12,090 bases of DNA, taken from the IMG/VR virus record IMGVR_UViG_2778261395_000003, one strand, 5' to 3'. Numbering within the stretch: the stretch's first letter is position 1; the number at the start of each line of letters is the position of its first letter. The position numbers and the translations under genes were made by a program. Origin of the DNA: a virus (lineage: Duplodnaviria > Heunggongvirae > Uroviricota > Caudoviricetes). Below, piece by piece: positions 1 through 12,090 of the stretch. Below the pieces are notes generated by a model. That model saw only the letters and a program-made list of their open reading frames with translations. It was not told the origin of the DNA and did no database searches.

Positions 1-318
1 ATGAAAAAGATAGCTGCTATATCATTAATTAGTATTTTTATTATGTCTGGTTGTGCTGTGCATAATGATGAGACAAGTATCGGTAAATTTGGTCTTGCAT
101 ATAAAAGTAATATTCAGCGTAAACTCGATAACCAATACTACACCGAAGCCGAAGCTTCTTTAGCCAGGGGTAGAATATCTGGTGCAGAAAATATAGTAAA
201 AAATGATGCAACTCATTTCTGTGTTACTCAGGGCAAAAAAATGCAAATAGTTGAGCTGAAGACAGAAGGTGTAGGATTACATGGTGTCGCTCGTCTGACA
301 TTCAAATGTGGAGAGTGA
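1..318 (+). CDS. yegR: Small lipoprotein (105 aa), host flanking gene, YegR-like
   Basis: Complete ORF with ATG at 1. N-terminal hydrophobic signal followed by lipobox-like M-S-G-C. Size and position next to the P2 remnant and yegQ match what I recall of E. coli yegR. GC content is host-like. Confidence 0.6.
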   Translation: MKKIAAISLISIFIMSGCAVHNDETSIGKFGLAYKSNIQRKLDNQYYTEAEASLARGRISGAENIVKNDATHFCVTQGKKMQIVELKTEGVGLHGVARLTFKCGE

Positions 319-477
319 GAATATTTTTTGGTAAGCGTCAAATATGCGCGTTCTGGCTGTGCGTAGCCGGAACCTGTGGGAGCACGATGCCGATAAGTGA
401 AAGGCATCGTGCTATGAAGGAGGATTCTATCGATGTGGTCAATGGAAGACGGTTACCAGAGATAGGGCTTATGCATA

Positions 478-504
478 AAAAAATAAGCCCGTGTAAGGGA
501 GATT
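478..504. repeat. attL core: 27-bp direct repeat AAAAAATAAGCCCGTGTAAGGGAGATT, identical to 10558-10584
   Basis: Exact 27-bp identity seen at both ends of the element. It lies immediately beyond the 3' end of the int gene, as expected for a P2-type attachment site. The length matches the 27-bp P2 core as I recall it. Confidence 0.75.
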
Positions 505-583
505 TAGGGTGTCACCAGTAGGGGCTTTCAACGGTACAATGCGGGTTTGAGCGGCATAAATTACCACTGAAAGCCCTTAAACG

Positions 584-1597
584 TTACTCTACTGTGGACA
601 CTGTGTGGACACTCTCGACCTCAGTACCACCTCTTAGCGGATTAAGAGAAATGGCGTCCTGAAGGTACTCTGGCGCAAAATGAGCGTAAACCATAGTTTG
701 CTCAATCCGCGTGTGACCTAGTATCCGTTGTAGCGTGATAATACTTCCTCCATTAATCATGAAATGAGTGGCAAAGCTGTGCCTTAGTGCATGTGTAGCT
801 TGCCCCATTGGCAAATCCGGTTTTATTGCTTTCATTGTTCGTCTGAAGCGAGGGTAATCAGCATCAGGGAATAAAAAACCTCGTTTGTTATCCGCGATCA
901 TTTTGGCAACAGCCTCTGAGATCGGGACGGTGCGTGGTTTGTTTGTTTTCGTTTTAACAAACGTGACGCGGTTATGGATGATATTTTCTGCTTTCAAACG
1001 AGCAGCTTCTCCCCAACGTGCTCCAGTACTCAGGCAAAGAATCGCAATCTTTTTGTTGTCGCCGTCAAGAGCAGCAAGCAGTAAGGCAATTTCTTCCTGC
1101 GTGAGATAGCCTGTGTCTGGTTTTTCCTCCTTAAGCCTTTTTGTCCCTCTGATAGGGTGCTCACCAAAGAATAACTCCGCTTCAATCAGGGCTGTAAACA
1201 TGCCGCTAATACATGTTAAATCACGATTGATACTCGAAGGTTTAATACCCTGACTTCTTCGGGTGGCGCAGTACTGGCTGATAAGCGATTTCGTAATTTG
1301 AAATGCGCATGGGTCATTCGTTATTTTTGTGAAGATTTCAATTTTTCCAAGATTAGATTTCCCATGCTCTTCGTGTTTACCCTTTAAATCCCACCAGATC
1401 TGTGTCAGCTCCGACAGACGTCGCTTGTCTGTTGGTTTTGATAGCCATTCTTTATTGTGGTGGTTGTACAACGTGTATTTCTCGAAAGCGACAGCTTCGC
1501 TTTTCTTATCAAACTTCCTACGGATGCGTTTTCCATTACGTCCAGTAGGGCGGATGTCCACTTCATATCGACCATCATCGAGTTTTTTGATTGCCAT
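584..1597 (-). CDS. int: Tyrosine integrase, P2 Int-like (337 aa)
   Basis: 337 aa, the size of P2 Int. C-terminal catalytic region contains R...HxLRHSFAT...LGH...Y (ATHALRHSFATHF, ILGHTRIEQTMVYAHF). GGAGGG Shine-Dalgarno upstream of the ATG. Sits adjacent to the att core and is co-oriented with the C repressor gene. Confidence 0.9.
   Translation of the reverse strand: MAIKKLDDGRYEVDIRPTGRNGKRIRRKFDKKSEAVAFEKYTLYNHHNKEWLSKPTDKRRLSELTQIWWDLKGKHEEHGKSNLGKIEIFTKITNDPCAFQITKSLISQYCATRRSQGIKPSSINRDLTCISGMFTALIEAELFFGEHPIRGTKRLKEEKPDTGYLTQEEIALLLAALDGDNKKIAILCLSTGARWGEAARLKAENIIHNRVTFVKTKTNKPRTVPISEAVAKMIADNKRGFLFPDADYPRFRRTMKAIKPDLPMGQATHALRHSFATHFMINGGSIITLQRILGHTRIEQTMVYAHFAPEYLQDAISLNPLRGGTEVESVHTVSTVE
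593..611. promoter_or_regulatory. Putative Int arm-type binding sites (P-prime arm): two direct TGTGGACA repeats 11 bp apart, inside the 3' end of int
   Basis: TGTGGACA at 593-600 and 604-611. A similar pair with the same spacing sits in the opposite arm at 10499-10517. The motif matches my recollection of the P2 Int arm-site consensus. Confidence 0.45.
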
Positions 1598-1712
1598 CAG
1601 AAAACCCTCCGAGTGGTGTGTTTTTTTGCGACTACTAATCGCTTTTTTCGTGGTGGCTGAAATTTAGCCACCAATAGTAGGCACTTGTGATGAATATATT
1701 CACGATGAATTG

Positions 1713-2012
1713 TTAACCAGTCTTTTGACCGGAGTGGGGCGACGTTGTTTCGTTTTGCCCAAAGTGTGCGAGAGCGGGCGCAATTTGCCCGGACTCAGGA
1801 GCGATCTGATTGGTCATGAACCATAAAGTGTATTTGGTGAATTGTGGGGTCTGCAGGATGTTCATCATGACATCTGTTGGAGGTGTTGAACGACCACTTT
1901 CATAGTAACTCAGCGTGCCATACGGAACCCCTGTTAAATCAGCAAGTTGTTGTCTGCTCAAATACTCTGATTTTCGCATTAAGACTATCTTCTCGCTTAT
2001 CGTGTTTGACAT
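1713..2012 (-). CDS. C: Immunity repressor, P2 C-like (99 aa)
   Basis: 99 aa, the size of P2 C. Divergent from cox across a 114-bp switch region carrying direct repeats. The N-terminal segment QQLADLTGVPYGTLSYYESG looks like a helix-turn-helix. Confidence 0.85.
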   Translation of the reverse strand: MSNTISEKIVLMRKSEYLSRQQLADLTGVPYGTLSYYESGRSTPPTDVMMNILQTPQFTKYTLWFMTNQIAPESGQIAPALAHFGQNETTSPHSGQKTG

Positions 2013-2046
2013 GGTGTTTAGATCTCAATAGTATTTAGTTTAGATG
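2006..2046 (+). promoter_or_regulatory. Early promoter Pe with flanking C-repressor operator half-sites (O1/O2)
   Basis: TTGACA (2006-2011) and TAGTAT (2029-2034) are separated by 17 bp. The direct repeat TTTAGAT at 2017-2023 and 2039-2045 (22 bp centre to centre) flanks the -10. A perfect TATAAT on the minus strand at 2084-2089 would give a convergent Pc with about 35 nt of transcript overlap. Confidence 0.6.
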
Positions 2047-2126
2047 TAGATTGTTTAGTGCTTGGATGTGGGCACTAAAAGGCATTATAAGACATTAAAC
2101 GCAATTCATGAGGGCTAGAGGACGAC

Positions 2127-2402
2127 ATGAGCAAGCAAGTAACACTCATGACTGATGCGATTCCTTATCAGGAGTTCGCAAAACTAATAGGAAAATCGAC
2201 AGGAGCGGTTCGTCGGATGATCGATAAAGGAAAGCTGCCTGTAATTGATATGACCGATCCACAATCAGCTTCAGGTCGTGCAGGTGAATATTGGGTATAC
2301 CTTCCGGCATGGAATAACGGACTAAAACTGGCTTATGAAAGCCGCCCTAAAGAGATTCGTGACGGCTGGTTGATGTGGTTAGGTCTCGGTGAACCACGTT
2401 AA
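2127..2402 (+). CDS. cox: Cox-like excisionase / Pc repressor (91 aa)
   Basis: 91 aa, the size of P2 Cox. First gene of the rightward early operon, with a GAGG ribosome-binding site. Confidence 0.8.
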   Translation: MSKQVTLMTDAIPYQEFAKLIGKSTGAVRRMIDKGKLPVIDMTDPQSASGRAGEYWVYLPAWNNGLKLAYESRPKEIRDGWLMWLGLGEPR

Positions 2403-2412
2403 GGAGAACCGT

Positions 2413-2583
2413 ATGAATGAGCCTCGTTGTATTGCTCAGTTACTGCGTAACGAAAGCCCCAGGGCGATTGACTTCACCATCACCCACGGTAAGGGGCGTA
2501 AGGGAATCATTATCCGCACCAAAAAACAGAGTCCGTTAAAAAAGGCTCTGACCTTTCTGAAAAGCCGGAGGGTATGGAAATGA
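2413..2583 (+). CDS. Small basic hypothetical protein in the P2 orf78 position (56 aa)
   Basis: ATG at 2413 is preceded by AAGGAG (2401-2406) at ideal spacing. The longer track ORF starting at 2389 has no ribosome-binding site. Lys/Arg-rich. Confidence 0.55.
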   Translation: MNEPRCIAQLLRNESPRAIDFTITHGKGRKGIIIRTKKQSPLKKALTFLKSRRVWK

Positions 2584-3080
2584 CAGTGATGACGCTCAAT
2601 CTCGTTGAAAAACAGCCAGCAGCTATGCGCCGGATAATTGGCAAGCATCTTGCCGTCCCTCGCTGGCAGGATACATGTGATTATTATAATCAGATGATGG
2701 AGCGCGAACGGCTAACGGTTTGCTTTCATGCACAGTTAAAACAGCGTCACGCAACGATGCGTTTTGAAGAAATGAACGACGTCGAACGTGAACGACTGGT
2801 TTGTGCAATTGATGAATTGCGTGGCGCATTCTCAAAACGCCGTCAGGTTGGTGCAAGTGAGTATGCATATATTAGTTTTTTAACAGTCAGTCAGCGTCGC
2901 ACTTTATTTATGCACGCACGACTGACTGAAAAAGAATTCAACCAGCCATACTGGCGAATTAATGAAGAATCATGTTACTGGCGTGATGCTTTGTTCCGTG
3001 CATTACGTGAATTATTCAGCATGTTTGAGTATGCACCGACAATTCTGACGTCGGTAAAACCAGAGCAATATCTGCATTAA
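2580..3080 (+). CDS. B: Replication protein B-like (166 aa from ATG 2580)
   Basis: Position between cox and A. 166 aa from the ATG at 2580, the size of P2 B. GGAGG at 2566-2570 favours 2580 over 2574. Confidence 0.75.
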   Translation: MTVMTLNLVEKQPAAMRRIIGKHLAVPRWQDTCDYYNQMMERERLTVCFHAQLKQRHATMRFEEMNDVERERLVCAIDELRGAFSKRRQVGASEYAYISFLTVSQRRTLFMHARLTEKEFNQPYWRINEESCYWRDALFRALRELFSMFEYAPTILTSVKPEQYLH

Positions 3081-3143
3081 ATAATTAACCAGAGTTTTTA
3101 ACGCACTTAATCGTGCGGGGCTTCTTTTTGCCTGGAGAAAGTC

Positions 3144-3368
3144 ATGCATACAGTTTCTGAAAATCAGTGCGGTATATACGCATTACTGCTGCAACAGGCC
3201 AGAACCGAAGCACAGGCCGACGCTGCGACGCGCTTTTCTTCTCATCTTGACGCCATGATTCGCCACATCACAAAGGCGGAGTTATCCCGCGTGGAGATAG
3301 TCGAGCTGCTCAGTCAGGAGTCGGAAAAATTTCACAATATCGGATTGTCTCGCGGGGAGGTGCTTTGA
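3144..3368 (+). CDS. Hypothetical early protein (74 aa), P2 orf80 position
   Basis: ORF with GGAGAAA ribosome-binding site. First of four tightly packed, overlapping small ORFs between B and A. Confidence 0.55.
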
Positions 3369-3670
3369 TGTCCTGTTCTCGTTCAGTTGTATTACTGAAT
3401 AACGCCTTAAAAATCGCCGTTATGAAAAATGGCGATTTATCTCTTATTCAACTTGGTCTTGATAAAGAAAAACGCGAAATAACTGAGTCTGTTATCGCGA
3501 TTTATCAGAACGAATTAAATCTCCTGTCTGATGTGGTCAATTTACTTGTTAAACGCGCTGTATTTCACAAGCAAATCTCCTCCGTGGATGAACTGACGAA
3601 GTTAACGACAGAAATTGCCAGCTATTGCGCTGATGAATTTAAGAAACTGAACGACAAAAGGAACTGGTAA
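3368..3670 (+). CDS. Hypothetical early protein (100 aa), P2 orf81 position
   Basis: ATG at 3368 overlaps the upstream TGA (TGATG), with GGGGAGG 9 nt upstream. The track's TTG start at 3365 is less likely. Confidence 0.55.
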   Translation: MSCSRSVVLLNNALKIAVMKNGDLSLIQLGLDKEKREITESVIAIYQNELNLLSDVVNLLVKRAVFHKQISSVDELTKLTTEIASYCADEFKKLNDKRNW

Positions 3671-3894
3671 TGCCGGACAACGTAGATTTCATTCAGGAAC
3701 AACAGGCTGAATTACTGGAGCGCCAGATTAACGCGGCAAGGGTAAAACATAGCGGTGTTTCTGCGCTGGTTTGCGAAGAGTGTGACGCGCTAATACCTGC
3801 TGCCCGTCGTGCGGCTTATCCGTCAGCCACGCGTTGTGTTTCCTGTCAGTCAGTCTTTGAAGCAAAAAACAAACATTACCGGAGAACGGCATGA
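3670..3894 (+). CDS. DksA/TraR-type C4 zinc-finger protein (74 aa), P2 orf82 position
   Basis: CEEC-x17-CVSC (C-x2-C-x17-C-x2-C) is the spacing of the zf-dksA/traR family. Start overlaps the upstream stop (TAATG). Confidence 0.6.
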   Translation: MPDNVDFIQEQQAELLERQINAARVKHSGVSALVCEECDALIPAARRAAYPSATRCVSCQSVFEAKNKHYRRTA

Positions 3895-4166
3895 GTATTC
3901 GTATTGAAATTGGCGAACGTTATGTCGTTACCAGTGACAGCTTTCAGTTTATTCTCCACGAGAAAAAGAGAGCGGAAAGCGGTAAAAACGCCGGTCAGGA
4001 ATGGCTGGCGGTGGTTGGTTATTACCCGAAATTAAGCCAGCTCGTTTCCGGCCTGATGCATCACGATATTCTGACCGGAAGCGCAAAGTCTTTTGCTGAT
4101 TTAAACGCGCAGGTTGAGCAACTCAGCAGGCGTTGTTCAGAGGCTTTGGGCTCATATGGCCGTTAA
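3891..4166 (+). CDS. Hypothetical early protein (91 aa), P2 orf83 position
   Basis: ATGA overlap with the upstream gene. Its end overlaps the A start, indicating translational coupling. Confidence 0.55.
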   Translation: MSIRIEIGERYVVTSDSFQFILHEKKRAESGKNAGQEWLAVVGYYPKLSQLVSGLMHHDILTGSAKSFADLNAQVEQLSRRCSEALGSYGR

Positions 4167-6423
4167 AGCCTCCGGGCGTTTTGTCCCTCCGTCAGCATTT
4201 GCCGCAGGCATCGGTAAGACGTTTACCGGTGCTTATGCATGGAACGCGCCACGCGAGGCTGTCGGGCGCGAAAGACCCCTTACACGTGACGAGATGCGTC
4301 AGGTGCAAGGTGTTTTATCCACGATTAACCGCCTGCCTTACTTTTTGCGCTCGCTGTTTACTTCACGCTATGACTACATCCGGCGCAATAAAAGCCCGGT
4401 GCACGGGTTTTATTTCCTCACATCCACTTTTCAGCGTCGTTTATGGCCGCGCATTGAGCGTGTGAATCAGCGCCATGAAATGAACACCGACGCGTCGTTG
4501 CTGTTTCTGGCAGAGCGTGACCACTATGCGCGCCTGCCGGGAATGAATGACAAGGAGCTGAAAAAGTTTGCTGCCCGTATCTCATCGCAGCTATTCATGA
4601 TGTATGAGGAACTCTGCGATGCCTGGGTGGATGCGCATGGCGAAAAAGAATCACTGTTTACGGATGAGGCGCAGGCGCATCTGTATGGTCATGTTGCTGG
4701 CGCTGCGCGTGCTTTCAATATTTCTCCACTTTTCTGGAAAAAATACCGTAAAGGACAGATGACCACGAGGCAGGCATATTCTGCCATTGCCCGTCTGTTT
4801 AACGATGAGTGGTGGATTAATCAGCTTAAAGGCCAGCGTATGCGCTGGCATGAGGCATTACTGATTGCTGTCGGGGAGGTGAATAAAGACCGTTCTCCTT
4901 ATGCCAGTAAACATGCCATTCGTGATGTACGTGCACGCCGCCAGGCAAATCTGGAGTTTCTTAAATCGTGTGATCTCGAAAACAAGGAAACCGGCGAACG
5001 CATTGACCTTATCAGTAAGGTGATGGGAAGCATTTCTAATCCTGAAATTCGCCGTATGGAACTGATGAACACCATCGCCGGTATTGAGCGTTACGCCGCC
5101 GCAGAGGGTGATGTGGGGATGTTTATCACGCTGACCACGCCGTCAAAGTATCACCCGACACGTCAGGTCAGAAAAGGCGAAAGTAAAACCGTCCAGCTAA
5201 ATCACGGCTGGAACGATGAGGCATTTAATCCAAAGGATGCGCAGCGTTATCTCTGCCGTATCTGGAGCCTGATACGCACGGCATTCAAGGATAATGATTT
5301 ACAGGCCTACGGTTTGCGTGTTGTTGAACCACACCACGACGGAACGCCGCACTGGCATATGATGCTTTTTTGTAATCCACGCCAGCGTAACCAGATTATT
5401 GAAATCATGCGTCGCTATGCGCTCAAAGAGGATGGCGACGAAAGAGGAGCCGCGCGAAACCGTTTTCAGGCAAAACATCTTAACCGGGGCGGTGCTGCGG
5501 GGTATATCGCAAAATACATCTCAAAAAACATCGATGGCTATGCACTGGATGGTCAGCTCGATAATGATACCGGCAGGCCGCTGAAAGATACTGCTGCGGC
5601 TGTTACCGCATGGGCGTCAACGTGGCGAATTCCGCAATTTAAAACGATTGGCCTGCCGACAATGGGGGCTTACCGTGAACTACGCAAATTGCCTCGCGGC
5701 GTCAGTATTGCTGATGAGTTTGACGAACGCGTCGAGGCTGCTCGCGCTGCCGCAGACAGTGGTGATTTTGCGTTGTATATCAGCGCGCAGGGTGGGGCAA
5801 ATGTCCCGCGCGATTGTCAGACTGTCAGGGTTGCCCGTAGCCCGTCGGATGACGTTAACGAGTACGAGGAAGAAGTCGAGAGAGTGGTCGGCATTTACGC
5901 GCCGCATCTCGGCGCGCGTCATATTCATATCACCAGAACGACGGACTGGCGCATTGTGCCGAAAGTTCCGGTCGTTGAGCCTTTGACTTTAAAAAGCGGC
6001 ATCGCCGCGCCTCGGAGTCCTGTCAATAACTGTGGAAAGGTCACCGGTTGTGATACTTCGTTACCGGCTCCCACACCTTCTGAGCACGCCGCAGCAGTGC
6101 TTAATCTGGTTGATGACGGTGTTATCGAATGGAATGACCCGGAGGTTGTGAGGGCGCTCAGGGGCGCATTAAAACACGGCCTGAGAACGCCAAATCGTCA
6201 GCAAAGAAACGGAAGCTCGTTAAAACCACATGAAATTGCACCATCGGCCAGACTGACCCGGTCGGAAAGAATGCAAATTACCCGTATCCGCGTTGACCTT
6301 GCTCAGAACGGTATCAGGCCGCAGCGATGGGAGCTTGAGGCGTTGGCGCGCGGGGCAACAGTAATTTATGACGGTGAGCGGTTTAGTTATGCTGTAAAAG
6401 ACGATTGGGTGATGTTTTCTTAA
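4156..6423 (+). CDS. A: Rolling-circle replication initiator, P2 gpA / phiX174 gpA superfamily
   Basis: HUH motif H-W-H-M-M-L at 5350-5367. Paired catalytic tyrosines in Y-I-A-K-Y-I-S-K (Y codons at 5503-5505 and 5515-5517), resembling the phiX174 A active site. Start placed at ATG 4156; the track's TTG at 4114 has no spacer after its Shine-Dalgarno-like sequence. Confidence 0.9.
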   Translation: MAVKASGRFVPPSAFAAGIGKTFTGAYAWNAPREAVGRERPLTRDEMRQVQGVLSTINRLPYFLRSLFTSRYDYIRRNKSPVHGFYFLTSTFQRRLWPRIERVNQRHEMNTDASLLFLAERDHYARLPGMNDKELKKFAARISSQLFMMYEELCDAWVDAHGEKESLFTDEAQAHLYGHVAGAARAFNISPLFWKKYRKGQMTTRQAYSAIARLFNDEWWINQLKGQRMRWHEALLIAVGEVNKDRSPYASKHAIRDVRARRQANLEFLKSCDLENKETGERIDLISKVMGSISNPEIRRMELMNTIAGIERYAAAEGDVGMFITLTTPSKYHPTRQVRKGESKTVQLNHGWNDEAFNPKDAQRYLCRIWSLIRTAFKDNDLQAYGLRVVEPHHDGTPHWHMMLFCNPRQRNQIIEIMRRYALKEDGDERGAARNRFQAKHLNRGGAAGYIAKYISKNIDGYALDGQLDNDTGRPLKDTAAAVTAWASTWRIPQFKTIGLPTMGAYRELRKLPRGVSIADEFDERVEAARAAADSGDFALYISAQGGANVPRDCQTVRVARSPSDDVNEYEEEVERVVGIYAPHLGARHIHITRTTDWRIVPKVPVVEPLTLKSGIAAPRSPVNNCGKVTGCDTSLPAPTPSEHAAAVLNLVDDGVIEWNDPEVVRALRGALKHGLRTPNRQQRNGSSLKPHEIAPSARLTRSERMQITRIRVDLAQNGIRPQRWELEALARGATVIYDGERFSYAVKDDWVMFS

Positions 6424-6506
6424 ACTGATGGCATCATGATACATTAACAAATCTGAAGCAATGCTTTAGTAGTCGTGCATTAATAACTTATAAGGAATTA
6501 TTATCG

Positions 6507-7829
6507 ATGAGTGCGTTAAGGGATGAAGTATCTATGAAGGTTGCGTTCTCTAATGGCATGATAAACAAATTATGCAAAAGTTTTTTTTATAGTCATGGTA
6601 AGGAGCAGCCTTGTATCCAAGTCGGTAAAGCATTAGAAGATTTTGTTTTTTGGCTTGCATATAATGATGAGGAGATTGCAAAATGTGCTAGTAGGTTATT
6701 AAAAGCATATGGCCCCCAATTAGGTATAAGTGACCTTCACAATGCGAAAAGATTATTGTTAGGTTTTTGTTCTGAAGCCTTCAATCGCATTGATGCTGAT
6801 TTTCTGTCGCTTAATCCTGATAAGATTTGTGTTGATGATATTATAACGCAAGTTCATAGAAAAAATCTTAGTGAGATGTTTAAGTATTATATACTTTCAC
6901 GAATAAAATCCTGTCCGTATATTTATAATCTTGGGTGTGCTGGCTTTGATGGGAAGCTTGAGCTTAGAGAAAATTTATTTTTATATGGCCCGGGGCTAGG
7001 GGTGGAATTAATTTCTGATATTAAAGACAAAACTGACATCAAGGTTCCTGTTGATTTTTATGATGATGAATATATGCGGCATAAACCAATTGGGAAATAT
7101 TTTCGACAGTCAAAATCCTGCTTGGTGGTGGCATATGCTTCATCAGAGGATAAAGCGGTGAAAATGTTTGATAGTTTGTTTGGAGCTTTATGTCTTGCGG
7201 TTGATAATCCTTTTGCGATTAATCGAGTTGCTGTTAATAATCTAGTTGAGTCTTTTGGTGTCGGGAAATATCATGAAAGTGAGTTTCGGGTGAATATTCC
7301 GTCTGTATATAATTTAAATATAACGGATTCAGCCTTGGCGATACTTACAAAAATACTTTCATCACCTGATAAAAGGATGTTGTCTGCTCTTTCCTTTATA
7401 GCGCACGGGTGGAGGGATGACAAACGTGAAAGGTTTTTGAATCAATTTATAGCATTGGATGCTATGTATGGAACCAATAATGGTAATAAAAATTCAATTA
7501 TTGGCGGTGTTTGCAGAGATGCGGCGAAAATTATTGATATTGATTCAAAAATAGGAATAATCTATGAGCTTAGGTGTAAGTTTGTTCATGGAGATATTTC
7601 ATCGTTATCTGATAATGATAGCTATCGAAAGTTTATTGATAGCTATGGCGTGGACCCTATTGTTTCTCTTTTTGAAATTCTTAAAGAATGCGTCCTTAAT
7701 TATAATGGTACTTACAAAACGCCAAAAGATGTTGGAAAGGCAGATAGGTCTATTTGCGTTCCTGCTGAGTTGCTTCCAGCGGTTGAGAGGATGATAGCGG
7801 AATACAGTGGAGTTAAAAAAACAAACTAA
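6507..7829 (+). CDS. AT-rich orphan cargo protein (440 aa); candidate defence or abortive-infection effector with an R-x4-H motif
   Basis: Long ORF with AAGGAA ribosome-binding site 9 nt upstream. GC is about 25-35 percent against about 55 percent in the adjacent A gene. Occupies the A-to-cos slot. No Walker A motif. C-terminal YELRCKFVHGD contains R-x4-H (R codon 7572-7574, H codon 7587-7589). Confidence 0.75.
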   Translation: MSALRDEVSMKVAFSNGMINKLCKSFFYSHGKEQPCIQVGKALEDFVFWLAYNDEEIAKCASRLLKAYGPQLGISDLHNAKRLLLGFCSEAFNRIDADFLSLNPDKICVDDIITQVHRKNLSEMFKYYILSRIKSCPYIYNLGCAGFDGKLELRENLFLYGPGLGVELISDIKDKTDIKVPVDFYDDEYMRHKPIGKYFRQSKSCLVVAYASSEDKAVKMFDSLFGALCLAVDNPFAINRVAVNNLVESFGVGKYHESEFRVNIPSVYNLNITDSALAILTKILSSPDKRMLSALSFIAHGWRDDKRERFLNQFIALDAMYGTNNGNKNSIIGGVCRDAAKIIDIDSKIGIIYELRCKFVHGDISSLSDNDSYRKFIDSYGVDPIVSLFEILKECVLNYNGTYKTPKDVGKADRSICVPAELLPAVERMIAEYSGVKKTN

Positions 7830-7970
7830 AGATGTTCTTTTTAGCCTCGCCTGCATTAGGTGCATAAATTTGCATTCATTTTCAAATATATCTTTTGACA
7901 GCGAGCACCAGAACAGGCGCTTGCCGGGGGGATGATGCACCTGCATTAAAACCGCCCCATGAAGCGGGCG

Positions 7971-7989
7971 GGCGAGGCGGGGAAAGCAC
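7971..7989. other. cos site: 19-nt P2/P4-type cohesive-end sequence GGCGAGGCGGGGAAAGCAC
   Basis: Exact match to the P2/P4 cohesive-end sequence as I recall it. It sits in a GC-rich non-coding island (about 7895-8040) between two AT-rich blocks, at the position expected between the A side and Q. Confidence 0.65.
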
Positions 7990-8122
7990 TGCGCGCAATG
8001 ATGTCAGTTTGAGGGCATCAGGCATGGGGACACTACACAGTTTCATTTTTGTTATTAATTGTTTATCATATAAGTGTTTGTTTTTTGAACGGCATGTCGT
8101 GTGCTATATGGAGTGAATAGAA

Positions 8123-8392
8123 GTGACTAAATTTGACAAAAAAAAAGCAATTTCTATTTTAACAGAAAAAAAAGCCTTGCTCCCATGTCATCGGTGTGGA
8201 AATTCAAAGTTCATCATTTTGGATGGCATATCATCACTTCCATTAATGGAAAATATGGAAATGATTGGTAGTATTGTTGTTGGCGGAATGAATGCTCCTG
8301 TATTACATGTGGCATGTGAGAATTGTGGTGCAGTTACTTCACATTTGCTTGGGGCACTTGGTTTAATGCCGGAGATTAAATCAAATGACTAA
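8123..8392 (+). CDS. Small zinc-ribbon protein (89 aa), first gene of a two-gene cargo module
   Basis: GTG start with GGAG 8 nt upstream. Two C-x2-C pairs (CHRCG and CENCG) about 40 residues apart. AT-rich. Overlaps the next gene by 8 nt. Confidence 0.6.
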   Translation: MTKFDKKKAISILTEKKALLPCHRCGNSKFIILDGISSLPLMENMEMIGSIVVGGMNAPVLHVACENCGAVTSHLLGALGLMPEIKSND

Positions 8393-8855
8393 GGGTGTTT
8401 TTTTCTCTGATGAAGGTAGTGGTAAAAAAAGTGCTGTCTTGCATGGGGCGCAGGTTACAATAAACCCTGATTCGCAATTTACAAAAAAGATAATTAGGCA
8501 GACTGAGGTTGATGTTATTGTGATAAGTGATGATAAACTTCATATAATTTTGACGAATTGCTTATCTAAAATTGCATCATTAAACCGCTGGTCAACACCT
8601 TTGGGTATTTTAATTACCTTGGCGGTAACTATGTTAACCACAAATTTTAAGAATTTTATTCTTCAGGATTCTGTGTGGGAGGCTGTTTTCTGGATGCTTA
8701 TTTTTTTTAATATTATCTGGTTGGTGAAAAACATTCCATATAGACACTTATTTTTAACTGTTTGTCATTCTATAGGGGTTCGTAAAGATAAAAAAAGAAT
8801 TAGTGATGTATACCACATTATAGATATAATTAAACAAGGTGATACACGCTTTTGA
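8385..8855 (+). CDS. Small membrane protein (156 aa) with two predicted transmembrane helices, second gene of the cargo module
   Basis: Two hydrophobic stretches (WSTPLGILITLAVTMLTT and AVFWMLIFFNIIWLV) after a roughly 65-aa soluble N-terminal region. ATG overlaps the upstream gene's end. AT-rich. Confidence 0.65.
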   Translation: MTKGVFFSDEGSGKKSAVLHGAQVTINPDSQFTKKIIRQTEVDVIVISDDKLHIILTNCLSKIASLNRWSTPLGILITLAVTMLTTNFKNFILQDSVWEAVFWMLIFFNIIWLVKNIPYRHLFLTVCHSIGVRKDKKRISDVYHIIDIIKQGDTRF

Positions 8856-8888
8856 TTTAATATCAATATTTGATTGAGTATATAATAA

Positions 8889-8911
8889 AGCCGCCTGAGT
8901 TTATGGCGGCT
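8889..8911 (-). terminator. Hairpin downstream of the Q remnant, possible intrinsic terminator
   Basis: 7-bp GC-rich stem AGCCGCC/GGCGGCT with a 9-nt loop. On the minus strand it is followed by UUUAUUAUAU, immediately 3' of the Q stop. Confidence 0.4.
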
Positions 8912-8931
8912 AATATAGGGTGTGTGCTAAG

Positions 8932-9936
8932 TCATAATGTGTATTTGTTGAATCTAATTATTTCTTCGCCAACCCATTCATTAAGGGCAATAAAGCGAGA
9001 TTGAATAGGAGTAAGCTCATTGCGGACAAAGACCTTTGCCACTTTCTCAATATCACCCAGCGACCCGACGTTCTCCGGCTTGCCGCCCATCAACTGAAAG
9101 GGGATGCGGTGCGCGTCCAGCAGGTCAGCGGCGCTGGCTTTTTTGATATTAAAAAAATCGTCCTTCGTTGCCACTTCACTGAGCGGGATAATTTTAATGC
9201 CGTCGGCTTTCCCTTGCGGGGCATAGAGAAACAAATTTTTAAAGTTGTTGCGGCCTTTCGACTTCACCATGTTTTCGCGAAGCATTTCGATATCGTTGCG
9301 ATCCTGCACGGCATCGGTGACATACATGATGTATCCGGCATGAGCGCCGTTTTCGTAATACTTGCGGCGGAACAGCGTGGCCGACTCATTCAGCCAGGCA
9401 GAGTTAAGGGCGCTGAGATATTCCGGCAGGCCGTACAGCTCCTGATTGATATCCGGCTCCAGCAGGTGAAACACGGAGCCGGGCGCGAAGGCTGTCGGCT
9501 CGTTGAAGGACGGCACCCACCAGTAAACATCCTCCTCCACGCCACGGCGGGTATATTTTGCCGGTGAGGTTTCCAGTCTGATGACCTTACCGGTGGTGCT
9601 GTAACGCTTTTCCAGAAACGCATTACCGAACACCAGAAAATCCAGCACAAAGCGGCTGAAATCCTGCTGGGAAAGCCACGGATGCGGGATAAATGTCGAG
9701 GCCAGAATATTGCGTTTGACGTAAATCGGCGAGCTGTGATGCACGGCAGCACGCAGGCTTTTCGCCAGACCGGTAAAGCGAAACCGGTCACGCAGAAGAA
9801 AGCGCCAAAAGTACCGGAAGCGCGCGAAGGTGAATACATGGCCGGTGAGGCTGACAACGTTTTTGCCCTGACCACGGTATATGCCACGAAAGCGCAGGCC
9901 ATGCGCGCCGCTCAGGCGAAGTGGGACAAACTGCAA
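8932..9936 (-). pseudogene. Q: Portal protein gpQ-like remnant, N-terminally truncated and fused to antisense D sequence
   Basis: The C-terminal roughly 250 aa look like genuine protein. The first roughly 80 codons are R/F-rich low-complexity sequence lying antisense to the D-fragment frame, so the true 5' part of Q is probably missing. Confidence 0.7.
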
Positions 9937-10155
9937 CGGGGCGTCGCGGAGTTCTCCATCAGCCTGGCTACCGGTCGGGCTGATATTTACACGGAAACAC
10001 CGGTTAAAGTGTCAGGCTTTAAGCGCGTCATAGACGAGCAGGACTGGACAATCACTAAGGTGACACATTTTCTGAATAATAGCGGCTTCACGACGTCCTT
10101 AGAGCTTGAGGTCAGGCTTTCTGATGTGGAGTACGAAACAGAAGATTATGAGTGA
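9682..10155 (+). pseudogene. D: 3' fragment of tail gene D (gpD C-terminal region); yegZ-like remnant
   Basis: The C-terminal sequence (VSGFKRVIDEQDWTITKVTHFLNNSGFTTSLELEV) matches the conserved end of P2 gpD-family proteins as I recall it. The ORF is far too short for a full D (about 387 aa) and sits directly upstream of ogr. The first in-frame ATG within the clearly D-like part is at 9838. Confidence 0.7.
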
Positions 10156-10236
10156 TGTCTTTTGTTTATCTGTTTGTTTTGTAAGGATAAATTAACTAAA
10201 ATGGCACTATCAACAAAACCGGAAGAGGTGCTCGCG

Positions 10237-10455
10237 ATGTTTCATTGTCCTTTATGCCAGCATGCCGCACATGCGCGTACAAGCCGCTATATCACTGACA
10301 CGACAAAAGAGCGTTATCACCAGTGTCAGAACGTGAATTGCAGCGCCACGTTCATCACCTATGAGTCGGTACAGAGATACATCGTGAAGCCGGGAGAAGT
10401 CCACGCCGTAAGGCCGCACCCGTTGCCGTCAGGGCAGCAAATTATGTGGATGTAA
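10237..10455 (+). CDS. ogrK: Ogr-type zinc-finger late-gene transcription activator (72 aa)
   Basis: C-x2-C-x22-C-x4-C (CPLCQ ... CQNVNC) zinc-binding motif. 72 aa from ATG 10237. Last gene before attR and followed by a strong intrinsic terminator. Confidence 0.85.
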   Translation: MFHCPLCQHAAHARTSRYITDTTKERYHQCQNVNCSATFITYESVQRYIVKPGEVHAVRPHPLPSGQQIMWM

Positions 10456-10467
10456 TTAGAAACAGGA

Positions 10468-10493
10468 AGCCCCTCAGTCGAGGGGCTTTTTTT
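10468..10493 (+). terminator. Rho-independent terminator of ogr
   Basis: 8-bp stem AGCCCCTC/GAGGGGCT with a 4-nt loop, followed by seven T residues. Confidence 0.7.
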
Positions 10494-10498
10494 GTCGA

Positions 10499-10517
10499 TG
10501 TGGTCAATGTGTGGACG
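10499..10517. promoter_or_regulatory. Putative Int arm-type sites (P arm): TGTGGTCA and TGTGGACG, 11 bp apart
   Basis: Same motif family and spacing as the pair at 593-611. A near-consensus IHF-like site (TTTCAATTTGTTG, 10540-10552) lies between these and the core. Confidence 0.4.
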
Positions 10518-10557
10518 TGAACAGAAATAAATCCTTTTATTTCAATTTGTTGTACGT

Positions 10558-10584
10558 AAAAAATAAGCCCGTGTAAGGGAGATT
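10558..10584. repeat. attR core: 27-bp direct repeat identical to 478-504, overlapping the 3' end of cyaR
   Basis: Exact identity with 478-504. Coincides with the terminator and U-tract of the sRNA gene. Confidence 0.75.
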
Positions 10585-10644
10585 ACACAGGCTAAGGAGG
10601 TGGTTCCTGGTACAGCTAGCATTTTATGGGTTATGTTTTTCAGC
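10558..10644 (-). ncRNA. cyaR: CyaR (RyeE) Hfq-dependent small RNA, 87 nt
   Basis: The minus-strand sequence GCUGAAAAACAUAACCCAUAAAAUGCUAGCUGUACCAGGAACCACCUCCUUAGCCUGUGUAAUCUCCCUUACACGGGCUUAUUUUUU matches CyaR as I recall it. It contains the CCUCCUUAG anti-Shine-Dalgarno-like seed and a terminal hairpin (CCUGUGUAA / UUACACGGG) with a U-tract. Located between yegQ and ogrK as in E. coli. Confidence 0.85.
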
Positions 10645-10694
10645 GAAACGGATGATAACCTTAATAAATGCAGCTGTATGTGATCGGTTTCTAA
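10645..10694 (-). promoter_or_regulatory. cyaR promoter with candidate class II CRP site
   Basis: TGTGA-N6-TCTAA (10679-10694) is centred about 42 bp upstream of the inferred transcription start at 10644. A TATCAT-like -10 lies at 10652-10657. CyaR is a known CRP-cAMP-activated sRNA. Confidence 0.4.
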
Positions 10695-10728: not shown

Positions 10729-12090
10729 TCACTTACCGTGTGGGTTACGCGTGGTTTCCCCGGAGAAATTACGCATCAGCAGAGCGTAATTGAGCTCAAG
10801 ATCCTGCGGGACCGGGAGCCACACAGTATAACCATCGCCTGGTGCGACCGGCATCGCTTCACCTTTGGCGTTTTCCATGTGCTCAAGGGTAAAGTTAATG
10901 TTGCCTTGCGGCGTCATCAGCTCAAGGCTGTCGCCAACGGAGAATTTATTTTTCACCGCTACCGCCGCGAGGTCCCCCTTGCGCTCACCGGTAAACTCAC
11001 CAACAAACTGCTGGCGGTCAGAAACTGAATAACCGTATTCGTAGTTCTGATAATCGTCGTGAGTATGACGACGCAGGAAACCTTCGGTATAGCCACGATG
11101 CGCCAGACCTTCCAGAGTTTCCAGCAGGCTGGTATCGAACGGTTTGCCCGCAGCGGCGTCATCGATAGCTTTACGGTAAACCTGTGCGGTGCGTGCGCAA
11201 TAGTAGAAAGATTTAGTACGGCCTTCGATTTTCAGCGAATGCACGCCCATTTTGGTCAGGCGTTCTACATGGGCGATGGCGCGCAGATCTTTCGAGTTCA
11301 TGATGTAAGTGCCGTGCTCATCTTCAAACGCGGTCATATACTCGCCCGGACGCTGGGCTTCTTCGATCATAAACACTTTGTCGGTTGGCGCGCCGATACC
11401 CAGCGTCGGCTCAACATTTTGCACCGGAATCGGCTCGTACTTGTGTACGATGTTGCCAACGTCATCTTCTTTCCCTTCCTGGACGTTGTACTCCCAGCGG
11501 CAGGCGTTGGTGCAGGTACCCTGGTTCGGATCGCGCTTGTTGATATAGCCAGAGAGCAGGCAGCGACCGGAGTAGGCCATGCACAGTGCGCCGTGAACGA
11601 AGATCTCGATCTCCATATCCGGCACCTGATTGCGGATCTCTTCAATCTCTTCCAGCGACAGCTCGCGAGAGAGGATCACGCGGGTCAGGCCCATTTGCTG
11701 CCAGAATTTCACCGTCGCCCAGTTTACGGCGTTAGCCTGCACCGAGAGGTGGATCGGCATTTCAGGGAAGTGCTCACGCACCAGCATAATCAGCCCTGGA
11801 TCGGACATAATCAGCGCATCCGGCCCCATTTCCACCACCGGTTTCAGGTCACGGATAAAGGTTTTCAGCTTGGCGTTGTGCGGTGCAATGTTGACCACGA
11901 CATAAAACTTTTTCCCCAGCGCGTGGGCTTCATTGATGCCGAGCTGAAGATTTTCGTGGTTGAATTCGTTGTTGCGCACACGCAGGGAGTAACGCGGCTG
12001 GCCCGCATAAACAGCATCTGCGCCATAAGCGAAAGCGTAACGCATATTTTTCAGCGTTCCCGCCGGGGAAAGGAGTTCCGGTTTAAACAT
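10729..12090 (-). CDS. yegQ: Peptidase U32 family protein YegQ/RlhA (453 aa, complete)
   Basis: Contains the U32 signature E-x-F-x2-G-[SA]-[LIVM]-C-x4-G-x-C-x-[LIVM]-S (EIFVHGALCMAYSGRCLLS). The ATG is the last codon of the window on the minus strand. Host-like GC content. Confidence 0.9.
   Translation of the reverse strand: MFKPELLSPAGTLKNMRYAFAYGADAVYAGQPRYSLRVRNNEFNHENLQLGINEAHALGKKFYVVVNIAPHNAKLKTFIRDLKPVVEMGPDALIMSDPGLIMLVREHFPEMPIHLSVQANAVNWATVKFWQQMGLTRVILSRELSLEEIEEIRNQVPDMEIEIFVHGALCMAYSGRCLLSGYINKRDPNQGTCTNACRWEYNVQEGKEDDVGNIVHKYEPIPVQNVEPTLGIGAPTDKVFMIEEAQRPGEYMTAFEDEHGTYIMNSKDLRAIAHVERLTKMGVHSLKIEGRTKSFYYCARTAQVYRKAIDDAAAGKPFDTSLLETLEGLAHRGYTEGFLRRHTHDDYQNYEYGYSVSDRQQFVGEFTGERKGDLAAVAVKNKFSVGDSLELMTPQGNINFTLEHMENAKGEAMPVAPGDGYTVWLPVPQDLELNYALLMRNFSGETTRNPHGK

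What the first reader, a model, noticed from the sequence alone, without database searches (positions are those of the whole stretch)
382..477. Host side of attL carries a second shared block and a degenerate copy of the phage P arm: possible scar of an earlier integration at this site
Beyond the 27-bp core, a 15-bp block TCGATGTGGTCAATG is also shared (430-444 and 10495-10509), and it contains an arm-type-like TGTGGTCA. The 32 nt between this block and the core at attL resemble, with substitutions and an indel, the corresponding attR P-arm sequence (GAAGACGGTTACCAGAGATA against GTGGACGTGAACAGAAATAA). For a simple single integration, the host arm should share only the core with the phage. One reading is a decayed attR relic from an older P2-like prophage. 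A perfect 10-bp inverted repeat (GCACGATGCC, loop 392-402, GGCATCGTGC; 382-412) lies just upstream and has no obvious role.
Basis: seen in the sequence. Interest (0 to 1): 0.5.

Follow-up and report, generated by a model that had tools for sequence, protein, structure and literature searches.

The report
Fossil P2-family prophage flanking attB
The "empty" E. coli landing site for phage P2, next to the small RNA gene cyaR, is the worn-down right end of a much older P2-family prophage, about 0.8 kb of which (including the gene yegR) survives in nearly every E. coli genome.

Summary
TCGATGTGGTCAATG occurs only at 430-444 and 10495-10509 (0.01 expected), and it is the first Int arm-type repeat of the P2 P arm. 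The bases between it and the core align with the P arm (z 5.5; z 8.7 in rarer long E. coli variants).

An empty-site strain carries 319-504 at 100% identity, and 5371 of 5426 complete E. coli genomes carry 1-504. That test was mis-specified, because it cannot detect a scar older than the species.

Other evidence supports the scar reading:
- In 61 of 120 Enterobacteriaceae species, including Escherichia whittamii, yegS starts 73-145 nt from the cyaR core. These species have a conserved spacer, no yegR and no P-arm-like block.
- E. coli keeps that ancestral spacer beside yegS. It is followed by a degenerate core (18/27) and a degenerate P' arm (z 6.8).
- Then come yegR, a relic of a 186-type genome right end (window 323-423), the P-arm relic and the live core. 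All four relics are collinear and co-oriented with the P2 map.

The scar is therefore an ancient, nearly species-wide fossil prophage. The 382-412 hairpin is stable, but it is neither a REP element nor a canonical terminator, and its role is unresolved.

The parts
1..318 (+). yegR, a 105-aa small lipoprotein-like gene. It lies inside the fossil element, between the fossil P' arm (upstream of the window) and the right-end relic, which is the position of accessory cargo next to the right end in P2 (where old lies).
   Evidence: Annotated yegR in RefSeq. Among 120 species loci it is present only in E. coli/Shigella and in L213. Homologues are almost all E. coli/Shigella, with rare distant ones in an IS-rich island of Enterobacter sp. 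BIDMC 29 and one other context. No phage homologue was found. P2 old sits just left of cosR.
323..423 (+). Relic of the cos-proximal right end of a P2/186-family genome. The match is strongest over 323-382. The stretch 395-423 also aligns weakly with the P2 ogr-terminator region, so its assignment is ambiguous.
   Evidence: Window 319-430 against the phage 186 right end gives score 150 against 69 +/- 12 (z 6.7, 0/1000). The homologous segment of Escherichia locus L213 hits the last 80 nt of phage 186 (E 1e-7) and the extreme right ends of about 30 other P2-family genomes. Window against L213 gives z 7.3. P2's own right end does not match (z 1.0).
382..412 (.). Perfect 10-bp inverted repeat (11 bp as folded, 381-413) with an 11-nt loop. 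It is specific to E. coli and sits within the right-end relic. Its function is unresolved.
   Evidence: dG -24.3 kcal/mol, z -5.9 on the + strand and -21.0, z -6.0 on the - strand. There is no T tract and 0 terminator-like sites, and no Rfam match. Three variable pairs stay paired by wobble on the + strand, one closing pair is broken, and there is no compensatory change. The stem is absent from the homologous place in L213 and phage 186.
425..477 (+). Fossil P arm, which forms the 'host' B side of attL and of the empty attB. It holds one intact Int arm-type repeat, TGTGGTCA, at 434-441. The second repeat is degenerate (GAAGACGG at 445-452), the IHF region is mostly lost, and the arm is 15 nt shorter than a live P arm.
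   Evidence: Long E. coli variants keep 12 more nt that match the P arm (AATCC..TATTT; z 8.7 and 7.4).
478..504 (+). 27-bp att core at attL. It is identical to the P2 attP core.
505..612 (+). Live P' arm of the resident P2-like prophage, with Int arm repeats TGTGGACA at 593-600 and 604-611. It overlaps the 3' end of int (584-1597, - strand).
10490..10557 (+). Live P arm of the resident prophage (attR). It has arm repeats at 10499-10506 and 10510-10517 and an IHF region, and is preceded by the ogr terminator.
10558..10584 (+). 27-bp att core at attR. It doubles as the 3' half of the cyaR terminator.
10561..10646 (-). cyaR (ryeE) small RNA gene, whose 3' end is the P2 integration target.
   Evidence: Rfam RF00112, 100.7 bits, E 1.2e-19. 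ryeE is recorded as a phage target in PMC3603311.

Best explanation
The host side of attL is the decayed right junction (attR) of an ancient P2-family prophage.

That prophage integrated at the 3' end of cyaR in an ancestor of E. coli. Deletions then reduced it to about 0.8 kb, and the remainder became fixed.

Reading from yegS towards cyaR, what survives is:
1. the ancestral yegS-cyaR spacer;
2. a degenerate displaced core and a degenerate P' arm (fossil attL, just upstream of the window);
3. yegR, sitting where P2-family phages carry accessory cargo;
4. a relic of the cos-proximal right end of the phage genome (window 323-423);
5. a degenerate P arm (425-477);
6. the still-perfect core (478-504).

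The core stays intact because it is part of the cyaR terminator. Present-day P2-like phages integrate into that core, so the 'B' arm of their attL is an old P arm. That is why it shares the first Int arm-type repeat and further similarity with the live P arm at attR.

The fossil arm has lost its second arm repeat, most of the IHF region and 15 nt of spacing. I infer that it no longer works as a P arm. Whether its one intact arm repeat still binds Int has not been tested.

Shown here: the homologies, their order and orientation, the ancestral state in outgroups, and the near-universal presence in E. coli. Inferred: that a single element left all four relics, that yegR was its cargo, and that the arm is now non-functional.
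For: - The 15-mer and the flanking similarity to the P arm exceed chance. The rarer long E. coli variants carry 12 more nt that match the P arm, with z 8.7 and 7.4.
- The block is the annotated Int P-arm site of P2. It is conserved in live P arms of P2-like prophages at cyaR in Citrobacter, Enterobacter and E. ruysiae, so the phage is the source of the motif.
- In 61 of 120 Enterobacteriaceae species loci, yegS starts 73-145 nt from the core. These include E. whittamii L234 and Escherichia sp. E1V33 L145, which have a conserved spacer, no yegR and no block.
- E. coli retains that same spacer next to yegS. It is followed by a degenerate core (18/27) and P'-arm-like sequence running about 170 nt. 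The score is 181 against 94 +/- 13 (z 6.8, 0/2000). The P' arm alone gives z 4.5 (1/2000). A second species, L213, shows the same fossil attL.
- The segment between yegR and the P-arm relic matches the extreme right end of phage 186 and relatives. BLAST gives E 1e-7 for L213, and the window gives z 6.7.
- All four relics are on the same strand and in the same order as in the P2 record.
- Window 1-504 is present in 5371 of 5426 complete E. coli genomes and the yegS-yegR intergenic region in 5424 of 5426. Empty-site strain 13C1065T is 100% identical over 319-504.
- K-12 shows the same decay process at a younger stage at this very site: D'-ogrK-P arm-core nested to the right of the old fossil.
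Against: - yegR has no detectable phage homologue, so its origin as phage cargo is only positional.
- The right-end relic is of the 186 type, whereas the arms are of the P2 type. P2's own right end does not match (z 1.0). The ancient element was therefore either a mosaic or more than one element left remains.
- The fossil core is only 18/27, and parts of the P' alignment are gappy.
- A 31-nt block around the arm repeat is nearly invariant among 19 E. coli haplotypes, while its neighbours vary. Pure neutral decay does not predict this, although the sample is small and the comparison was made after seeing the data.
- E. fergusonii and E. marmotae were not in the sample, so the age of the insertion is only loosely bounded.
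Confidence: 0.85

Rival explanations
1. Native host sequence. The B-side block is ordinary E. coli intergenic DNA, and the phage P arm shares it because an ancestral phage captured host DNA next to its integration site (host-to-phage transfer), or because of convergence.
For: The sequence is in every empty site examined and in 5371 of 5426 genomes.
Against: - The ancestral host flank, seen in 61 of 120 species including two Escherichia species, lacks the block. E. coli still carries that ancestral flank 0.8 kb further left.
- The block is a functional Int arm repeat that is conserved, always together with its partner repeat, in live P arms of phages from several genera.
- A matching fossil core plus P' arm marks the other end.
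Confidence: 0.04
2. Recent copying. The similarity arose in this strain or lineage by gene conversion or unequal recombination between the resident prophage's P arm (attR) and the attL flank.
For: The two copies flank the prophage as direct repeats. The 25-37 nt between the block and the core is the most variable part of the spacer and carries a 12-nt indel polymorphism.
Against: - Strains without any prophage have the identical sequence.
- The second arm repeat and the IHF region are degenerate in all 19 haplotypes, which a recent conversion would not produce.
- The block is also in K-12, to the left of its remnant.
Confidence: 0.03
3. Retained accessory site. The sequence began as a scar, but the intact arm-type repeat is now kept because it still binds P2 Int. 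It would then influence integration at the preferred E. coli site (known in the P2 literature as locI, from my own knowledge) or excision from attL. On this view the P2 attB here is not a plain core-only site.
For: TGTGGTCA and 7 flanking bases are identical to the live site. The 31-nt block has 1 variable position among 19 haplotypes, against roughly 5-6 expected from the neighbouring rate (my Poisson estimate gives P about 0.02, made after seeing the data).
Against: No binding or recombination data exist. One half of a two-repeat site sits at the wrong distance from the core and has no IHF site. The haplotype sample is small and biased towards lysogens. Low-quality Shigella and E. coli assemblies show substitutions in the block.
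Confidence: 0.1

Closest known systems
P2 remnant of E. coli K-12 (yegZ/D' - ogrK - attR next to cyaR)
   Same: It lies at the same site, comes from the same phage family and arose by the same process. A prophage lost most of its genome by deletion and left the attR-proximal end, with the P arm and core abutting cyaR.
   Different: The K-12 remnant is young. Its P arm is nearly identical to P2's, with both arm repeats and the IHF region, and it still has recognisable ogr and D. It is strain-specific and annotated. The fossil described here is older, lies to the left of the K-12 remnant within K-12 itself, and is present in nearly all E. coli. It has no recognisable phage gene and is not annotated as phage-derived (one search lists no features).
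Displaced 3' gene fragments and nested islands at tRNA/tmRNA integration sites (own knowledge: Williams 2002, 2003; the hotspot idea is cited in PMC3603311)
   Same: Integration at the 3' end of a structured RNA gene duplicates the core. Successive integration and decay leave degenerate cores and arm fragments as fossils. The RNA gene keeps a functional 3' end supplied by the element.
   Different: The target here is an Hfq-dependent sRNA gene rather than a tRNA or tmRNA gene. The fossil is fixed at species level, and it forms the flank of a classical, experimentally used attB.
Functional P2 attP P arm (Int arm repeats plus IHF site)
   Same: The first arm repeat and its flanks are identical over 15 nt, and there is residual similarity through the rest of the arm.
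   Different: The second repeat is degenerate, most of the IHF region is missing, and the arm is 15 nt shorter (12 of these nt are still present in rare long variants). It should therefore not act as a P arm.

Membership tests
Fossil prophage / scar of an earlier site-specific integration | Similarity of the host flank to a phage att arm beyond the core, above chance | tested here: met
   z 5.5 for the window and z 8.7 and 7.4 for the long variants, with 0/2000 shuffles reaching the observed score. The 15-mer has a chance expectation of 0.01.
Fossil prophage / scar of an earlier site-specific integration | Absence of that flank from the ancestral (outgroup) unoccupied site | tested here: met
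   In 61 of 120 species, including E. whittamii and Escherichia sp. E1V33, yegS lies 73-145 nt from the core, with a conserved spacer, no block and no yegR.
Fossil prophage / scar of an earlier site-specific integration | A second boundary: a displaced core copy and the other phage arm next to the original host flank | tested here: met
   E. coli L001 2096-2176 is the ancestral spacer. It is followed by a degenerate core (18/27) and P'-like sequence, z 6.8. The same is seen in L213.
Fossil prophage / scar of an earlier site-specific integration | Internal remains of phage origin, in the order and orientation of the phage map | tested here: met
   A 186-type cos-proximal right-end relic lies between yegR and the P-arm relic on the same strand.
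Fossil prophage / scar of an earlier site-specific integration | Interior gene(s) of demonstrable phage origin | tested here: inconclusive
   YegR has no homologue in 50,697 phage records apart from two records that include host flank. Its distribution is patchy and partly IS-associated.
Functional P2-type P arm | Two direct arm-type repeats (tgTGGaCa; PMC3448106) | tested here: not met
   Only TGTGGTCA at 434-441 is intact. The second position reads GAAGACGG.
Functional P2-type P arm | IHF-binding region between the arm repeats and the core, with native spacing (63 nt from block to core) | tested here: not met
   The spacing is 48 nt, and most of the region annotated IHF in P2 is missing or diverged. 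Actual IHF binding cannot be tested with these tools.
Plain core-only attB (lambda-type paradigm) | No arm-type integrase sites in the bacterial flanks | tested here: not met
   One exact arm-type repeat lies 37-44 nt left of the core in all E. coli examined. Whether it is bound or used was not tested.
REP element or intrinsic terminator (hairpin 382-412) | Match to a curated RNA or repeat family, or a GC-rich stem followed by a T tract | tested here: not met
   There is no Rfam match in the window other than CyaR and 0 terminator-like sites in 250-650. The tail after the stem is UAUGAAGG.

The most novel reading that the evidence does not exclude
The single intact Int arm-type repeat preserved in the fossil arm is still used. 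P2 Int would bind it on the bacterial side, so that the preferred E. coli attB (called locI in the P2 literature, from my own knowledge) is not a plain core-only site. An ancient lysogeny would then have left both a phage-type core and an accessory site, biasing where and how stably modern P2-like phages integrate. Conversely, a young remnant with a complete P arm, as in K-12, would make the site unusable until the arm has decayed.
Probability: 0.1. Interest if true: 0.7.

Novelty: new member of a known kind. Interest (0 to 1): 0.42.

Why it matters
- It changes how a textbook attachment site should be read. The attB used for P2 work in E. coli is the attR of a long-dead relative, and the host arm is old phage DNA.
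- It explains the extra similarity beyond the core without invoking anything unusual about the resident prophage.
- It assigns an origin to about 0.8 kb of unannotated E. coli DNA and gives the orphan gene yegR a plausible source.
- It shows three generations of decay at one site: the old fossil, the K-12 remnant, and the 10-kb defective prophage of this window.
- It gives a cheap experimental question: does the surviving arm repeat affect site preference or excision?
- As a method point, it shows that comparing with empty sites within a species cannot rule out a scar. An outgroup and the second boundary are needed.

Tried and rejected
1. I first read AAGGGAGATT/AAGGAGGATT at about 417-427 as a fossil core just left of the block, because it matches the last 10 nt of the core. 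It aligns better with the right end of phage 186 and L213 (CATAAAGTGGGC), and the true displaced core lies beside yegS. I dropped this reading.
2. The hairpin as a REP element or terminator has no support.
3. I thought L008/L056 showed a compensatory C-G to U-A change in the hairpin. The formal count shows none, only three wobble-compatible changes and one broken closing pair.
4. YegR as a recognisable phage protein: no phage hits, no Pfam hit in this copy of the library, and distant homologues are not in P2-like contexts.
5. P2's own cos region against the fossil is not significant (z 1.0). Only the 186-type right end matches.
6. A blastn of 319-504 against the phage records found only the core, plus two records that include host flank. 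The arm similarity is too short and too diverged for BLAST.
7. Literature: the primary P2 att papers (Yu et al. 1989; Barreiro and Haggard-Ljungquist 1992, recalled from memory) are not held. Five full-text searches found no description of this fossil. I therefore cannot exclude that the arm similarity was noted there.

Full report
**What the window is.** It matches E. coli strain H9Ecoli at 100% identity. The layout is:
- yegR at 1-318 (+);
- a 27-bp core at 478-504 (attL);
- a P2-like prophage: int 584-1597 (-), gpA 4114-6423, a portal gene 8932-9936 (-), a truncated D at 9682-10155 and ogr at 10162-10455;
- a P arm, then the second core at 10558-10584 (attR);
- the sRNA gene cyaR at 10561-10646 (-) (Rfam, 100.7 bits);
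- yegQ at 10729-12090 (-).

The core is identical to the annotated attP core of P2. It forms the 3' half of the cyaR terminator. ryeE/cyaR is a recorded phage target (PMC3603311).

**Checking the observation.**
- The 15-mer TCGATGTGGTCAATG is present exactly twice, at 430-444 and 10495-10509. Chance expectation is 0.01.
- In P2 this sequence lies inside the region annotated as the Int-binding P arm, GTCGATGTGGTCAATGTGTGGACGTGAC.
- TGTGGTCA fits the published arm consensus tgTGGaCa (PMC3448106).
- The bases between the block and the core also align with the P arm. Ungapped identity is 73% over 40 nt. A gapped alignment gives z 5.5, with 0 of 2000 shuffles as good.
- The block is 48 nt from the core at attL and 63 nt at attR.
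- The 10-bp inverted repeat at 382-412 is exact and stable (dG -24.3 kcal/mol, z -5.9).

I looked for empty sites. Strain 13C1065T has yegR, then a sequence 100% identical to window 319-504, then cyaR and yegQ directly, with no phage. Window 1-504 is present in 5371 of 5426 complete E. coli genomes. K-12 (DH1) has it up to position 495, inside the core. It then continues into the known D'-ogrK remnant, with its own P arm and core. That criterion only tests for a scar younger than the species.

**Evidence that the flank is derived, not ancestral.** I scanned one genome per species for the cyaR terminator plus body and obtained 120 loci.
- In 61 of them yegS starts 73-145 nt from the core.
- These span Klebsiella, Enterobacter, Kosakonia, Citrobacter, Atlantibacter, Lelliottia and others, and they include Escherichia whittamii (L234) and Escherichia sp. 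E1V33 (L145).
- The spacer is conserved (...AGTGTA..CAG....CAGAACAGGATGAAAG...). It has no yegR and nothing resembling a P arm.
- yegR occurs only in E. coli/Shigella and in one further Escherichia species representative, L213. L213 is labelled E. coli strain SCPM-O-B-8794, and its YegS is 94.8% and its YegR 90.5% identical to the E. coli proteins.
- Many other species carry live P2-like prophages at the same core. Their P arms have both arm repeats and the AGAAATAAATCC.TTTATTTCA region (L136, L163, L176, L208, L222, L237, L239, L245).

The motif therefore belongs to the phage family, and the E. coli flank is a derived state.

**The other end of the old element.**
- In E. coli the 81 nt next to the yegS start (L001 2096-2176) align in register with the whole E. 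whittamii yegS-cyaR spacer.
- Where E. whittamii continues with the core and cyaR, E. coli continues with AAAAAGTCAGTTCAAGTATGGAGGATT. This matches the P2 core at 18 of 27 positions.
- It then continues with CAGTG-GTTACCACCAGGAGCTTGCAATGG, which follows the P2 P' arm (TAGGGTGTCACCAGTAGGGGCTTTCAACGG) and not cyaR.
- The alignment to P2 core plus P' runs about 170 nt, up to the int stop codon. The score is 181 against a null of 94 +/- 13 (z 6.8, 0/2000). The P' arm alone gives z 4.5 (1/2000).
- L213 shows the same arrangement.
- This intergenic region is present in 5424 of 5426 E. coli genomes and has no annotated feature.

**An internal relic.**
- The 420 nt left of the core in L213 hit the last 80 nt of the phage 186 genome (30543-30623 of 30624; E 1e-7). 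They also hit the extreme right ends of about 30 other P2-family genomes.
- E. coli is homologous to L213 there (z 7.3). Window 323-382 aligns directly with the 186 right end, ATTTTTTGGTAAGCGTCAAATATGCGCGTTCTGGCTGTGCGTAGCCGG against ATTGTTTTGCATGCGTCAGGCTTGCCCGTTCTGGTTGTGCGTCGCCAG (z 6.7, 0/1000).
- P2's own right end does not match (z 1.0), although the 186 and P2 right ends are related to each other (z 9.1).

In a P2-family prophage the order is core - P' - int ... A - cargo - right end | cos | left end - late genes - (ogr) - P - core. The fossil has core* - P'* - yegR - right end* - P* - core, all on the same strand as in the P2 record. yegR therefore sits where P2 carries old, just left of cosR. 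I could not show that yegR is of phage origin.

**Variants that fill the gap.** Among 56 E. coli flanks (19 haplotypes), most are short like the window. The long forms carry 12 more nt: GGGA[TCAATCCGTATT]TACAGC or GGGA[TCAATCCGTCTC]TATGG. The extra bases match the P arm (AATCC..TATTT) and raise the alignment to z 8.7 and 7.4. L213 also keeps this part (AAACAAATCTTTTAATTCAATTGG) but has lost the arm repeats. The two lineages thus preserve complementary parts of one ancestral P arm, and the short form is a derived deletion. Long forms occur in 4 + 145 of 5426 genomes.

**What it does now.** As a P arm it should be dead. The second repeat reads GAAGACGG, most of the IHF region is gone, and the spacing is wrong. 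This is inference from sequence; no binding data exist.

One point is not explained by neutral decay. The 31 nt around the intact repeat show 1 variable site among 19 haplotypes, while the flanks show many more. My rough estimate gives P about 0.02, but it was made after seeing the data and on a small, biased sample. I therefore keep a 10% rival in which the repeat still binds Int.

From memory only, P2 is reported to avoid the remnant-occupied site in K-12. If so, an intact P arm may block reuse and decay may reopen the site. I did not test this.

**The hairpin.** It lies inside the right-end relic. The homologous positions in L213 and phage 186 lack it. It is not followed by a T tract and matches no Rfam family. 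Variation among E. coli gives three wobble-compatible changes on the + strand, one broken closing pair and no compensatory change. A 3' stem-loop of the yegR transcript is the most natural guess, but it remains only a guess.

**Comparison with what is known.** This is the same kind of object as the K-12 P2 remnant, and as the displaced gene fragments seen at tRNA/tmRNA integration sites (own knowledge). It is older, fixed in the species and unannotated. Full-text searches found no description of it. The primary att papers are not held, so prior mention cannot be excluded. I file it as a new member of a known kind.

**Limits.**
- The species sample was cut at 120 loci and lacks E. fergusonii and E. 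marmotae.
- Three of the Escherichia/Shigella assemblies used (L149, L229, L231) contain obvious indel errors and were left out of the haplotype analysis.
- The shuffles preserve mononucleotide composition only.
- A single origin for all four relics is the simplest reading, but it is not proven.

Noticed in passing
window 505-10557: The resident P2-like prophage is itself defective. After gpA (4114-6423) come three ORFs with no Pfam or PADLOC hit (6507-7829, 440 aa; 8123-8392; 8385-8855). These are followed by a portal gene (8932-9936, - strand) that abuts a truncated D (9682-10155) and ogr. The late genes between Q and D are missing, and no recognisable cos region was found (z 1.4 against the P2 cos region).
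   Followed up: partly
window 3530-3541: A third exact copy of the 12-mer GATGTGGTCAAT, which contains the arm-type TGTGGTCA, lies inside a conserved early gene (DUF5405 family, ORF 3365-3670). My estimate of the chance expectation for an exact 12-mer in 12 kb is about 0.001. I did not check whether it is a chance coding match or an Int site.
   Followed up: no
L002 (E. coli DH1) 2978-2995, equivalent to window 478-495: The left junction of the K-12 P2 remnant falls inside the 27-bp core. Eighteen nt of the core are kept and then gene D sequence begins. The deletion that made the remnant therefore ended within the crossover region. This could reflect an aberrant Int-mediated event.
   Followed up: no
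window 465-490: The inverted repeat GGGCTTAT (465-472) / ATAAGCCC (483-490) spans the boundary between the fossil arm and the core, with loop GCATAAAAAA. On the cyaR strand it would let the terminator's 3' half pair with downstream sequence. It is weakened in the long variants (AGCTTAT) and absent from the live P arm.
   Followed up: no
window 453-477 and homologous positions in 19 E. coli haplotypes: The 25-37 nt between the arm-repeat block and the core is the most polymorphic part of the yegR-core spacer. It has a 12-nt indel, several substitutions and a variable A run; this window has 7 A where most have 6. The adjacent 31-nt block is almost invariant.
   Followed up: partly
L130, L164, L165, L189, L191, L204, L218, L232, L235 (Enterobacter spp.): These species have a 625-634-nt insertion between yegS and the cyaR core (633 in most, 625 in L165, 634 in L204), with sequence that reads like the 3' end of an ORF (...ELIAWIEEREG) running up to the core. 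It may be another integration relic at the same site.
   Followed up: no
L174 (E. albertii) and L182 (Salmonella enterica): E. albertii has a different degenerate P arm next to the core (only one TGGAC repeat). About 330 nt further left it has a stretch resembling the 186-type right end, with transposase-like fragments in between. Salmonella has an AT-rich island abutting the core and no yegS within 3 kb. The cyaR 3' end appears to be a recurrent insertion point across the family.
   Followed up: partly
core, window 478-504 against L234/L145: The E. coli core (GCCCGTGT) differs at two positions from that of E. whittamii and E1V33 (GCCTGCGT) and equals the P2 attP core. This is consistent with the 3' half of the E. 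coli cyaR terminator being phage-supplied. The CCCGTG form also occurs in some Kluyvera and Enterobacter species, so it is not decisive.
   Followed up: partly
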